Assembly (NCBI GenBank): GCA_019058365.1
Contig: JAHPZE010000002.1
Location: 32,001 to 96,000 of the forward strand
Reading direction: 5' to 3'
Length of the DNA stretch: 64,000 nucleotides
From: Promethearchaeota archaeon
Lineage (GTDB): Archaea > Asgardarchaeota > Lokiarchaeia > Sigyniarchaeales > SOKP01
Below the pieces are notes generated by a model. That model saw only the letters and a program-made list of their open reading frames with translations. It was not told the DNA's origin and made no database searches. Of this stretch, positions 6,735 through 28,126 are shown piece by piece. The first letter of the stretch is position 1. Each line of letters begins with the position of its first letter. The translations under genes were made by a program, and so were the position numbers.

Positions 6735-7330
6735 TTAATCACCTCTTAAGATGTCATCAAATTCCCCTTTATCTATTTTTTTTTGGATAGCTCTTGGATC
6801 TTGTCCTTCTACTGTTAACCCCACTGATAATGCTGTTCCTAACACTGTTTTTATGCCTGCTTTAATTGTTTTATCTAAAAATTTATCTCTTTTAGCCTTC
6901 ACTACATTTTGAACTTGATCAAGTGTCAAATTTCCTATTTTTGTTTCTGAACAACTAGCACTCCCTTTTTCAACACCTACCTCTTTCAGCAATAATGATG
7001 CAGTAGAAGGTGTTTCTATAAAAATTTCAAATTGCTTTGTCTCCGGATCACATTCAATTCTAACGGGTACGGTTAGTCCCCTAAATACCATTGTCTGCTT
7101 GTTGATTTCGTCAACCACATCTTTAATATGTGCATCGAAAATCGAAATAATTTTCGTTTATGCCTGTGGGACCAACAGCAGGACCTTTACCATAATTTGA
7201 CAAAAGCGATATGCTTTATGCAATAGGCGGCCCTCCTGATGCATTTGGGGTCTAATCGAAATGATTATTAAAGATATACACTCCCACCAGTCACAAGAGC
7301 CTTTACAACAATTTTTCCTTTTTCACTCAC
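6735..7330 (-). CDS. rpl11: 50S ribosomal protein L11 (uL11), split by three BHB introns; exons 7330-7281, 7243-7223, 7186-7158, 7129-6735 (495 nt, 164 aa)
   Basis: The ORF track shows only the C-terminal 127 aa. The spliced N-terminus reads [46 protein letters not shown], the conserved uL11 GG.A..GPP.GPA.GP.G.N motif. GTG start at 7330 is preceded by GGTGAG. Confidence 0.92.
7130..7157 (-). other. rpl11 mRNA intron 3 (28 nt, near-perfect BHB)
   Basis: Central helix GCAU/AUGC, bulges AA|A and AC|A, intron helix CGAAAAUU-auuuc-GAUUUUCG. Confidence 0.9.
7187..7222 (-). other. rpl11 mRNA intron 2 (36 nt, relaxed BHB)
   Basis: Exon helix AGGGCC/GGUCCU, central helix GCCU/UGGU (one U.U), cuts AU|U and AA|A; inner hairpin AAAGC-auauc-GCUUU; contains an in-frame UAA. 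Confidence 0.83.
7244..7280 (-). other. rpl11 mRNA intron 1 (37 nt, relaxed BHB/BHL)
   Basis: Central helix UGGG/CCCA, cuts AG|U and AA|U; inner hairpin UAAUC-auuuc-GAUUA; contains an in-frame UAA. Confidence 0.85.
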
Positions 7331-26726: not shown

Positions 26727-26926
26727 TTACTCCTTTTTAAATAGATTTCCACATCCCCCACACTTTACATTTTTTGCATAAACCGGAGTACCCTGCTTTA
26801 GCAGTATGCTGAAAGAGCAATACTTATACTGTAGTAAAGTACATTACTTTTATCCGGTTCTTCATGAAGCATGCGTGGATTATCATTTCCACATTTAGGA
26901 CATTTTACTCTTTTATAATCAGCCAT
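26727..26926 (-). CDS. Small zinc-ribbon protein (56 aa) split by one BHB intron; exons 26926-26826 and 26796-26727
   Basis: Spliced product MADYKRVKCPKCGNDNPRMLHEEPDKSNVLYYSMQGTPVYAKNVKCGGCGNLFKKE joins two CxxC halves that lie in different frames. Absent from the ORF track. Confidence 0.82.
26797..26825 (-). other. mRNA intron (29 nt, relaxed BHB) in the zinc-ribbon gene
   Basis: Central helix CAGU/GCUA (3 of 4 pairs), cuts AU|A and AA|G, intron hairpin AGUA(U)UGCU-cuuuc-AGCAUACU; the unspliced frame stops at UAA inside it. Confidence 0.8.
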
Positions 26927-26985
26927 ATTAGCCTAACTCTGTTATTAATTATTTTACATAATTAGTAGATTATAATAATATAAAT

Positions 26986-27516
26986 TTAGGTTTTTAAGTG
27001 GGTTTTTATAACAATCTCTCTTACAATTTGCTGGACTTTTTTCTTAGTTGTATCAATAACTATTTCTGCTGCTTCTTCATATAAGGATAATCGAAAATTT
27101 AGAATTTTCTTTATTTCTCTCTTAAAATTTTCTTTATTTATGAGAGGTCTTATTTCTATTCCATTATTTTTTGATCTTTTATAAATTTCCTCCAAACTAG
27201 CCTTTAAGAGGATAATATGACAATTTTTCTTTAAATTATCTAAATTAATCTTATTCAGAACTACGCCACCCCCACATGAAATTACAACTTTGTCTAATTC
27301 AGAGACTTTTTCATAGACAGAACTTTCATATTCTCTAAATTTGCTTTCTCCCTCTTCATCAAAAATTTGTGGAATAGTTTTTCCAGTTTTTTGAATTATT
27401 AGCTGATCAGTTTCAATAAATAGATAATCATCACCAAGATATTTAGCTAAAGCTCTACCTACAGTTGTTTTTCCAGTAGCCATAAAACCAATAAGAGCAA
27501 TGGAATCTTTAAGCAT
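26986..27516 (-). CDS. aroK: Shikimate kinase (bacterial type)
   Basis: IGFMATGKTTVG, GE..FR..E, VISCGGG, RPL. Confidence 0.92.
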   Translation of the reverse strand: MLKDSIALIGFMATGKTTVGRALAKYLGDDYLFIETDQLIIQKTGKTIPQIFDEEGESKFREYESSVYEKVSELDKVVISCGGGVVLNKINLDNLKKNCHIILLKASLEEIYKRSKNNGIEIRPLINKENFKREIKKILNFRLSLYEEAAEIVIDTTKKKVQQIVREIVIKTHLKT

Positions 27517-27562
27517 TTTGAATTACTTTCAATATCTTATTGAGTAGGTTAAACTTTTCTTT

Positions 27563-28126
27563 TTAGAATGATGAATCTAATGTAAATCCATGTTTTGCTA
27601 AAACACCCTTTTTTAATTCAAGGTAATTACTCGATATATATACCGGAAAGTTAAATTTTTCTGGATCTAGAGTTTCATTTTTTACATAGATAGGATCAGA
27701 ATGTGTCGCAACAACTTTACCAAAATAACAGATATGTGAACCAAGTTCTATTCTTTTAATAACTTTACATTCCATATTCCATGGAAACTCTTTTATCATT
27801 GGAACTTGTATAACAGAAGCATCTTGTTTTGTTAAATTTAATTTTTTCCATTTATTAACTTCTCTTCCAGAACGTGTTCCACAATAATCAGATTCTCTTA
27901 ATTGTTCTATTGTAGGATAATTAATAACAAATTCACCATATTTTTCAATTAAATGAAAAGAATATCGTTTAGGTTGGATAGAAATAGCAATAATAGGAGG
28001 ATCAAAGCAGACTTTCCCTACATATGCTAATGTTATTAAATTAGCGTCTTCGCCTGTTCCTACAGAAATAACTGCCACTGGCATAGGAAAAGTTGAGATT
28101 TTTGGACTTAAATCTACTTTTTTCAT
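27563..28126 (-). CDS. Flavin reductase-like protein (DIM6/NTAB family)
   Basis: PMPVAVIS, GEFVIN.P, CGTRSGR..NK, MECKV...ELGSH..F.G.V. Confidence 0.88.
   Translation of the reverse strand: MKKVDLSPKISTFPMPVAVISVGTGEDANLITLAYVGKVCFDPPIIAISIQPKRYSFHLIEKYGEFVINYPTIEQLRESDYCGTRSGREVNKWKKLNLTKQDASVIQVPMIKEFPWNMECKVIKRIELGSHICYFGKVVATHSDPIYVKNETLDPEKFNFPVYISSNYLELKKGVLAKHGFTLDSSF

What the first reader, a model, noticed from the sequence alone, without database searches (positions are those of the whole stretch)
26727..26926. Hidden 56-aa zinc-ribbon gene whose two CxxC halves are joined only by removing a 29-nt BHB intron
Seen: an ATG at 26926 reads MADYKRVKCPKCGNDNPRMLHEEPDKSNVLYYS and then hits a stop, while QGTPVYAKNVKCGGCGNLFKKE* follows in another frame. 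The intervening 29 nt (26825-26797) form a hairpin with BHB-like junctions (CAGU/GCUA, AU|A, AA|G), and splicing creates the ATG of ...YYSMQGTP.... Inference: this second, unlinked locus about 19 kb from rpl11 means mRNA introns are not confined to one gene, and small intron-split genes are invisible to ORF callers.
Basis: partly seen in the sequence, partly recalled or inferred. Interest (0 to 1): 0.86.

Follow-up and report, generated by a model that had tools for sequence, protein, structure and literature searches.

The report
tRNA-type mini-intron in zinc-ribbon gene
A tiny zinc-binding protein gene of a Loki-type Asgard archaeon is split by a 29-base hairpin shaped like a tRNA intron, and comparison with about 70 related genomes shows that the message must be cut and rejoined at exactly the predicted bases, a kind of mRNA splicing that the papers I could search describe only for the cbf5 gene.

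Summary
On the minus strand, exon 1 (26926-26826) ends in a stop inside a 29-nt insert (26825-26797). Exon 2 (26796-26727) follows in another frame.

- **Junction.** Removing the insert gives a 56-aa C4 zinc ribbon. Contiguous orthologues in the same genus and in 12 sister genera read ...VLYYSMQGTPVY... across exactly this junction.
- **Conservation.** 35 congeners keep an insert of exactly 29 nt at the same site.
- **Structure.** Nine base pairs show changes on both sides. The fold is a 4-bp helix, a 3-nt 5' bulge and a looser 3' loop, with both cuts after the second bulge base.
- **Selection.** Both exons have dN/dS of about 0.08 in the spliced frame only.
- **Enzymes.** The genome encodes two EndA paralogues and one RtcB.
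- **Missing evidence.** No RNA data could be found, so splicing is inferred, not seen.
- **Other introns in the same gene.** Relatives carry five further inserts that obey the same cutting rule, at three nearby sites. One of them is a copy of intron 1.

The organism is a Promethearchaeia (Loki-type Asgard) MAG. The closest known case is the cbf5 pre-mRNA intron of Crenarchaeota.

This scan has already reported such mini-introns on other DNA, both in this genome and in other Asgard genomes. This locus is therefore a new member of that kind.

The parts
26826..26926 (-). Exon 1. ATG at 26926-26924. It encodes 33 residues with the first CxxC knuckle (CPKC), then AT, the first two bases of the split Met codon.
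   Evidence: It matches exon 1 of orthologues at 64-100% identity. dN/dS is 0.083 among 31 intron-bearing species.
26797..26825 (-). 29-nt BHB-type mini-intron. It holds the in-frame stop TAA at 26800-26798.
   Evidence: It is absent from the contiguous orthologues (35 contiguous coding sequences listed). It is exactly 29 nt in all 35 intron-bearing congeners. Covariation is shown.
26727..26796 (-). Exon 2. It starts with G (third base of Met), then 22 codons with the second CxxC knuckle (CGGC), then TAA at 26729-26727.
   Evidence: dN/dS is 0.084 in the spliced frame, against 3.0 and 0.94 in the other two frames.
26828..26831 (-). Central helix H, 5' strand (CAGU, the last full bases of exon 1).
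   Evidence: It pairs with 26802-26799. This helix is 99.3% paired over 35 copies, and the pair at columns 15-47 varies as C-G, U-G and U-A.
26825..26827 (-). 5' bulge AU|A. The cut falls after the second base (26826|26825).
   Evidence: It is a 3-nt bulge in the MFE fold. The cut rule comes from PMC2738675.
26803..26824 (-). Inner hairpin h'. It has 5 + 3 bp with one bulged U and the loop CUUUC.
   Evidence: 7 of its 8 pairs show changes on both sides across species.
26799..26802 (-). Central helix H, 3' strand (GCUA; GCUG in most relatives).
   Evidence: Only the window's copy has C.A at the outer pair. G005 (L001) has C-G and sister G078 (L066) has U-A (alignment; tree).
26796..26798 (-). 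3' cut region AA|G. The cut falls at 26797|26796. It is a relaxed bulge or internal loop together with C at 26795.
   Evidence: The position follows from the 4-bp helix plus two bases. It is confirmed by the junction of contiguous orthologues. The loop is closed by the exon-exon helix at columns 4-10/52-58, which is 93.5% paired.
26977..26984 (-). TTTATATT, a possible archaeal TATA box 51-58 nt upstream of the ATG, just after the shikimate kinase stop.
   Evidence: Read from the sequence. This is inference only and was not tested.

Best explanation
This is a protein-coding gene for a 56-residue C4 zinc-ribbon protein. It is interrupted by a 29-nt archaeal bulge-helix-bulge (BHB) intron that sits after the second base of the Met35 codon. 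The proposed steps, all inferred, are as follows. The pre-mRNA folds so that the last exon-1 bases (CAGU) pair with the 3' part of the intron (GCUA/GCUG), forming the 4-bp central helix. An 8-bp intron hairpin stacks on one side and an exon-exon helix on the other. The splicing endonuclease cuts after the second base of each bulge, at AU|A and AA|G. The genome has two EndA paralogues, which fits the broad-specificity (alpha-beta)2 type reported for Asgard archaea. RtcB then joins the exons and creates the AUG codon. Only the spliced message encodes both CxxC halves. The unspliced message would give a 42-residue product with half a zinc site. Shown here: the exact junction, conservation and covariation of the intron, purifying selection on both exons in the spliced frame, and the presence of the enzymes. 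Inferred: the RNA-level cutting and joining. The function of the protein is unknown; it is a generic small zinc ribbon.
For: (1) Junction. Contiguous orthologues in the same genus and in the 12 other genera of the family read ...VLYYSMQGTPVY..KCGxCG.. with DNA ...TAYAGTAT|GCARGG..., exactly the predicted join.
(2) Conservation. 35 congeners carry an insert of exactly 29 nt at the same base.
(3) Repair by removal. Removing the insert restores the full ORF in 31 of the 33 copies tested. The other two need a second BHB insert removed as well.
(4) Structure. 93.7% of cells are paired. 9 pairs show changes on both sides. 0 of 500 shuffles reach the observed values, and slid controls give 26-50% pairing. 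7 of the 8 inner-hairpin pairs covary, and the central helix is 99.3% paired.
(5) Selection. Among 31 intron-bearing species dN/dS is 0.083 (exon 1) and 0.084 (exon 2, spliced frame) with dS at or above 1. The other frames give 0.94-3.0.
(6) Cut rule. Cutting between the second and third bulge bases, as in cbf5 (PMC2738675), gives the right frame for this insert and for five other inserts in the same gene in relatives.
(7) Enzymes. The genome has two EndA-domain genes of about 205 aa and one RtcB. Asgard EndA is reported as (alpha-beta)2 with the L1 loop for relaxed motifs (PMC5829648).
(8) Inheritance. On a tree of the flanking genes, 31 of the 35 intron-bearing genomes form one group, so the intron was inherited vertically over long divergence.
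(9) Protein fold. The AlphaFold2 model of a contiguous orthologue (pLDDT 80.5) puts the junction in the turn between two long strands of a single small domain.
Against: No RNA evidence exists: no RNA run was listed. Metagenome contigs that hold the spliced junction all come from intron-free species, at most 87% identical to any intron-bearing copy. The 3' cut site is not a clean 3-nt bulge. The outer closing pairs are weak, and an alternative pairing (columns 12-50 and 13-49) would bury the site in a helix. The window's own copy has a C.A mismatch in the 4-bp helix. The single-sequence fold is not better than shuffles. A -1 frameshift inside the insert is not excluded by stop codons in any single copy.
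Confidence: 0.9

Rival explanations
1. Recoding during translation. A programmed -1 ribosomal frameshift, or a hop across the hairpin, joins the two frames, and the conserved hairpin is the stimulator.
For: The exon-2 frame is open across the insert in the window's copy. In none of the 35 copies does a stop in that frame lie after the first frame-0 stop. A conserved hairpin is present.
Against: The windows in which a shift could work do not overlap between species: columns 33-36 in L003/L067 and columns 42-48 in L061/L062. No common shift site can therefore exist. No slippery heptamer is conserved. A shift would add about 10 residues in a beta-turn that contiguous orthologues lack. The insert evolves by paired changes, not by codon constraint. 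A hop cannot create the split AUG codon that orthologues encode. The same cut rule repairs five unrelated inserts.
Confidence: 0.04
2. The gene is broken. It is a pseudogene, a frameshifting insertion or an assembly error, and only the 42-residue exon-1 peptide, if anything, is made.
For: Public annotations call only the truncated 42-44-aa ORF. The gene is small and of unknown function.
Against: The same 29-nt insert is present in 35 independently assembled genomes. Exon 2 is under purifying selection as strong as exon 1, and only in the spliced frame, with dS at or above 1. All four Cys residues and the stop are kept in the 31 copies that intron-1 removal repairs fully; the other two also need a second insert removed.
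Confidence: 0.02
3. The insert is removed from the RNA, but by a different route than EndA/RtcB, for example another endonuclease that recognises the hairpin.
For: The 3' site departs from the strict BHB.
Against: The spacing of the two cuts across a 4-bp helix, each after the second unpaired base, is the signature of EndA (PMC2738675). It holds for six inserts. Both enzymes are encoded. 29 nt is far too short for a self-splicing intron.
Confidence: 0.04

Closest known systems
cbf5 (pseudouridine synthase) pre-mRNA intron of Crenarchaeota (Watanabe 2002; Yokobori 2009, PMC2738675)
   Same: It is a short intron (16-44 nt there, 29 nt here) inside a protein-coding sequence. It has a relaxed BHB, predicted cuts between the second and third bulge bases, a host with a heteromeric EndA, and a patchy distribution among relatives.
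   Different: The phylum differs (Asgard/Promethearchaeia, not Crenarchaeota), and so does the gene (a 56-codon zinc ribbon). Relatives of this gene carry further introns at three other nearby sites, one of them a copy of the first.
BHB introns of archaeal tRNA genes, very abundant in some Asgard lineages (bioRxiv 10.64898/2026.10.13.758758; PMC5829648)
   Same: The motif, the cut rule and the presumed enzymes (EndA, RtcB) are the same. So are the small size and the repeated gains at sites that can form the motif.
   Different: The host RNA is an mRNA. The exon half of the motif is made of codons (Tyr-Ser-Met), so the structure and the protein sequence constrain the same bases.
Unconventional cytoplasmic splicing of HAC1/XBP1 mRNA in eukaryotes (from my own knowledge; RtcB involvement is also mentioned in PMC8718801)
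   Same: A small intron is removed from an mRNA by a protein endonuclease plus a tRNA ligase. This changes the reading frame and the C-terminus of the product.
   Different: The endonuclease there is IRE1 acting on twin stem-loops, and the splicing is regulated by stress. Nothing here shows regulation.
Small one-domain zinc-finger proteins of archaea (e.g. HVO_0758-type, MJ0042-type zinc ribbons)
   Same: The protein is about 55 residues with two CxxC knuckles. There are weak sub-threshold hits to these families.
   Different: No curated family is matched above its cut-off, and no solved structure matches at E<=0.001. The family appears restricted to Promethearchaeia-type MAGs.

Membership tests
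Archaeal BHB (splicing-endonuclease) intron | A central 4-bp helix flanked by two 3-nt bulges on opposite strands | tested here: inconclusive
   The helix and the 5' bulge are canonical: 4 bp in 34 of 35 copies and 99.3% paired. The window's copy has 3 bp plus C.A. The 3' side is a 4-base loop closed by weak pairs or by a 7-bp exon-exon helix, which is a relaxed form.
Archaeal BHB (splicing-endonuclease) intron | Cuts between the 2nd and 3rd bulge bases give the true exon junction | tested here: met
   The predicted join TACAGTAT|GCAGGG equals the contiguous sequence of intron-free orthologues. The rule is taken from PMC2738675.
Archaeal BHB (splicing-endonuclease) intron | The structure is kept in evolution by compensatory changes | tested here: met
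   9 pairs show changes on both sides. 0 of 500 shuffles reach the observed score. Slid controls give 26-50% pairing against 93.7%.
Archaeal BHB (splicing-endonuclease) intron | The host encodes EndA and an RtcB-type ligase | tested here: met
   Two PF01974 genes (103.5 and 72.6 bits) and one PF01139 gene (567.6 bits) are present in the same assembly.
Archaeal BHB (splicing-endonuclease) intron | Spliced RNA and an excised (circular) intron are observed | not testable with these tools
   No RNA run was listed. Junction-bearing metagenome contigs all come from intron-free species.
cbf5-type pre-mRNA intron | The intron lies in the cbf5 gene at its conserved site | tested here: not met
   The host gene is a 56-codon zinc ribbon next to shikimate kinase. 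The intron works like the cbf5 intron but is not a member of that intron lineage.
C4 zinc ribbon | Two CxxC knuckles on a beta-hairpin scaffold, with all four Cys invariant | tested here: met
   C10, C13, C47 and C50 are invariant in 17 contiguous orthologues. The model has two long strands and pLDDT 80.5.
Any curated Pfam or NCBIfam zinc-ribbon family | Score above the family's curated cut-off | tested here: not met
   The best hits are all below their cut-offs: CxC5 21.3 bits (cut-off 26.9), HVO_0758 22.3 (27) and MJ0042 18.8 (20.9).

The most novel reading that the evidence does not exclude
In Promethearchaeia the tRNA-splicing machinery acts as a general mRNA-splicing system, and its mini-introns are still spreading. 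This one 57-codon gene has introns at four positions within about 10 codons in different relatives. In one genome a second intron is a recognisable copy of the first. It sits 19 nt downstream, at a site that already carried the same CAGUAU hexamer, the exon half of the motif. This would mean that introns propagate to sites which pre-form the splicing motif. It would be a protein-enzyme route to intron-rich coding genes in the closest archaeal relatives of eukaryotes.
Probability: 0.5. Interest if true: 0.9.

Novelty: new member of a known kind. Interest (0 to 1): 0.78.

Why it matters
- **Rarity in the literature.** In the papers I could search, BHB introns inside archaeal coding sequences are documented only for cbf5 of Crenarchaeota.
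- **A strong comparative case.** Here the same mechanism is needed to make a protein in an Asgard archaeon. The comparative evidence is unusually dense: 35 intron-bearing and more than 30 intron-free orthologues, full covariation, and selection on both exons.
- **A system for studying intron gain.** The locus has a dated gain inside one genus, five further inserts at three nearby sites, and one intron-to-intron copy.
- **Annotation.** Gene callers truncate such genes to 42-44-aa 'hypothetical proteins'. Asgard proteomes used for eukaryogenesis studies are therefore systematically wrong at these loci.

Tried and rejected
- **RNA evidence.** No RNA holder was listed for window:26500-27300, so read laying could not be used.
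- **Metagenome scan for the junction.** A scan of JGI metagenome contigs for the spliced junction found 9 contigs. All are multi-kb genomic contigs of intron-free species, at most 87% identical to any intron-bearing copy. They are therefore not cDNA.
- **P0005 look-up.** P0005 is a full-length protein of the MTEYK type, close to the intron-bearing copies. All its contigs are genomic and show the same flavin reductase - shikimate kinase - zinc ribbon synteny.
- **Covariance model of intron 1.** Searching the whole own genome found only the locus itself (E 9.5e-15). The next hit (E 1.1, C52) is not in an ORF. Intron 1 is therefore not a multi-copy family in this genome.
- **Protein families and fold search.** Pfam, NCBIfam and Foldseek/PDB gave no family or fold match above threshold.
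- **Tree of the gene itself.** With 129 columns it is too poorly resolved to count gains and losses. The flanking-gene tree was used instead. It is a quick tree; the careful search did not finish.
- **Alternative exon-2 frame.** The frame with CKKC is rejected, because orthologues and dN/dS support the CGGC frame.
- **Motif search alone.** A loose single-sequence BHB scan is non-specific in this AT-rich DNA, so motif search alone should not be trusted.

Full report
**What is in the sequence.** On the minus strand an ATG at 26926 opens a 42-codon ORF. It reads through a CPKC knuckle to ...VLYYS and then into ISIALSAYC and a stop at 26800-26798. Downstream, in another frame, lies QGTPVYAKNVKCGGCGNLFKKE followed by a stop at 26729-26727. 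Deleting 26825-26797 (29 nt) joins ...TACAGTAT to GCAGGGT.... This creates an ATG codon and gives a 56-residue protein with two CxxC knuckles.

On this one sequence the case is weak. The fold energy is no better than shuffles (z = -0.73). A loose BHB scan finds dozens of candidates in 190 nt of this AT-rich DNA. A third frame of exon 2 also holds a CxxC.

**Comparison settles the junction.** The window is contig C34 of a 4.7-Mb assembly. Relatives carry the titles Promethearchaeota or Promethearchaeia archaeon, that is, Loki-type Asgard MAGs.

I searched exon 1 alone against 41 related genomes and then a contiguous orthologue against 135 genomes of the family. The gene was found in 122 of the 135. 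Outside the window's genus nearly every copy is contiguous. At least 13 genomes of the genus are contiguous too. All of these read ...VLYYSMQGTPVY-xxx-[ILVM]KCGxCG..., with DNA ...TAYAGTAT|GCARGG.... That is exactly the predicted join. No homologue needs another junction or keeps the inserted residues.

35 other or identical-site copies in the genus carry an insert at the very same base, and it is exactly 29 nt in every one. Removing it restores a full ORF in 31 of the 33 copies tested. The other two need a second insert removed as well.

**The insert is a conserved RNA structure.** The alignment has 35 sequences and 69 columns. I tested this structure on it:
- an exon-exon helix (columns 4-10 with 52-58);
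- a 4-bp central helix (columns 15-18 with 44-47);
- a 3-nt bulge (columns 19-21);
- an 8-bp hairpin (columns 22-30 with 36-43).

The result is 93.7% of cells paired and 9 pairs with changes on both sides. Of 500 shuffles, 0 reach the observed values. Slid controls give 26-50% pairing. Seven of the eight hairpin pairs covary. One lineage (L006, L067, L068) has replaced almost every hairpin base while keeping the pairs. The central helix is 99.3% paired.

The only unpaired cell in the central helix is the window's own C.A. G005 has C-G there and the window's sister G078 has U-A (alignment; tree), which looks like a compensatory change half-way through.

The two splice sites lie after the second unpaired base on either side of the 4-bp helix (AU|A and AA|G). 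This is the rule stated for cbf5 introns (PMC2738675).

The 3' side is not a clean 3-nt bulge. It is a 4-base loop opposite four exon-1 bases, closed by the exon-exon helix or by two weak pairs, and an alternative pairing can bury it. I therefore call the motif a relaxed BHB. This is the form that heteromeric EndA enzymes with the L1 loop are reported to handle, and Asgard archaea are reported to have that enzyme type (PMC5829648). The assembly encodes two EndA-domain genes and one RtcB.

**The exons are translated in the spliced frame.** Among 31 intron-bearing species dN/dS is 0.083 for exon 1 and 0.084 for exon 2 in the spliced frame, with dS at or above 1. The other two frames of exon 2 give 3.0 and 0.94. 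This excludes a pseudogene or an assembly error.

A -1 frameshift inside the insert is not excluded by stop codons in any single copy. However, the windows in which it could occur do not overlap between species: columns 33-36 in L003/L067 and columns 42-48 in L061/L062. No conserved shift site can therefore exist. Such a product would also add about ten residues in the turn between the two long strands of the modelled domain, residues that contiguous orthologues lack.

**History.** A tree of the two flanking genes (shikimate kinase and flavin reductase; 360 columns; quick search only) puts 31 of the 35 intron-bearing genomes in one group. It does not force more than one origin. The 129-column tree of the gene itself is unresolved. 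The simplest reading is one gain inside the genus, followed by vertical inheritance over a divergence at which synonymous sites are saturated.

A covariance model of the intron finds no other copy in the window's own genome.

**More introns in the same tiny gene.** Five further inserts of 30-32 nt lie in or just after the Val-Tyr codons, 6-8 codons downstream of intron 1. They occur in three genomes of the genus and two of another genus. Each has a 3-4 bp central helix, 3-nt bulges and an 8-10 bp hairpin. For each, the cut rule restores the frame and the normal spacing to the second knuckle.

In G016 the second intron, together with its CAGTAT exon hexamer, is 31/43 identical to intron 1 of the same gene. 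This is far above shuffles. It looks like a copy that landed where the exon half of the helix already existed.

Public protein sets contain exon-1-only products of 42-44 aa named 'hypothetical protein'. They also contain products truncated or read through at the second site. The gene is therefore mis-called rather than invisible.

**The protein.** No curated Pfam or NCBIfam family is reached, and Foldseek finds no solved structure at E<=0.001. The four Cys residues are invariant. A paralogous ribbon forms the C-terminus of a protein of about 335 aa. The function is unknown.

**What is missing.** No RNA run was listed. Metagenome contigs with the spliced junction all come from intron-free species. 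Splicing is therefore inferred. I put it at 0.9.

**Context.** In the library I could search, BHB introns in coding sequences are described only for cbf5. Asgard tRNA genes are reported to be heavily interrupted by such introns.

Earlier unchecked notes of this scan report similar mini-introns in other genes of this genome and of other Asgard genomes, some with RNA support. In this window the uL11 N-terminus is indeed in four pieces.

This locus is thus a new, very well supported member of a kind that the scan has met before. Its added value lies in the dense comparative series and in the intron-copy event.

Noticed in passing
L017:1422-1452 (minus strand; genome G016, also L145): The same zinc-ribbon gene has a second, 31-nt BHB intron 19 nt downstream of intron 1. 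Together with its CAGTAT exon hexamer it is 31/43 identical to intron 1 (score 18; shuffles -8 +/- 3.6, maximum 6 of 2000). It looks like a copy that landed at a second CAGTAT site in the Pro-Val-Tyr codons.
   Followed up: yes
L010:1655-1684 (+), L070:370-401 (+), L071:376-405 (+), L072:291-320 (-): Four more inserts of 30-32 nt lie in the VY-K codons of the same gene, in genomes G017 and G088 (genus g1) and G111 and G112 (genus g22). Each has a 3-4 bp central helix, 3-nt bulges and an 8-10 bp hairpin, and each restores the VY-xxx-[ILVM]KCGxCG spacing when cut by the BHB rule. Three of them share the site GTTTATAA| with helix TTAT/ATAA (TTAT/GTGA in L071) but have unrelated hairpins.
   Followed up: yes
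window 7100-7330 (minus strand): The N-terminus of ribosomal protein uL11 is in four pieces (MSEKGKIVVKALVTGG / ASGGPPIG / GPAVGPTGIN / IKDVVDEIN...) separated by short inserts. The called ORF starts only at 7118. This agrees with an earlier first-reader note of three BHB introns.
   Followed up: partly
P0024, P0033, P0038, P0041 (public proteins): Database orthologues either stop a few residues after VYxxx or carry an in-frame 12-residue insertion there (P0033, 68 aa). This suggests further second-site introns that were read through or truncated by gene callers. P0039-P0043 are exon-1-only products of 42 aa.
   Followed up: no
window 26831 and 26799; L001, L066: The outer pair of the central helix is C-G in G005 (L001), C.A in the window and U-A in its sister G078 (L066). 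This looks like a compensatory change caught half-way.
   Followed up: partly
G000:C15:19810-19941 (L165:1096-1500, minus strand): A paralogous copy of the whole zinc ribbon (...CPECGNENPLMIHE...YRCGECG...) forms the C-terminus of a protein of about 335 aa with an acidic, low-complexity N-terminal part. It is conserved in many genomes of the family. Its function is unknown.
   Followed up: no
G000:C26:34764-34988 and G000:C12:101662-101910: There are two separate EndA-domain genes with open frames of about 205 aa. This is consistent with a heteromeric (alpha-beta)2 splicing endonuclease. The catalytic residues and the L1 loop were not checked.
   Followed up: no
window 26986-28126 (minus strand) and L169: The gene order flavin reductase - shikimate kinase - zinc ribbon is conserved in intron-bearing and intron-free relatives, so all copies compared are orthologues at one locus.
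   Followed up: partly
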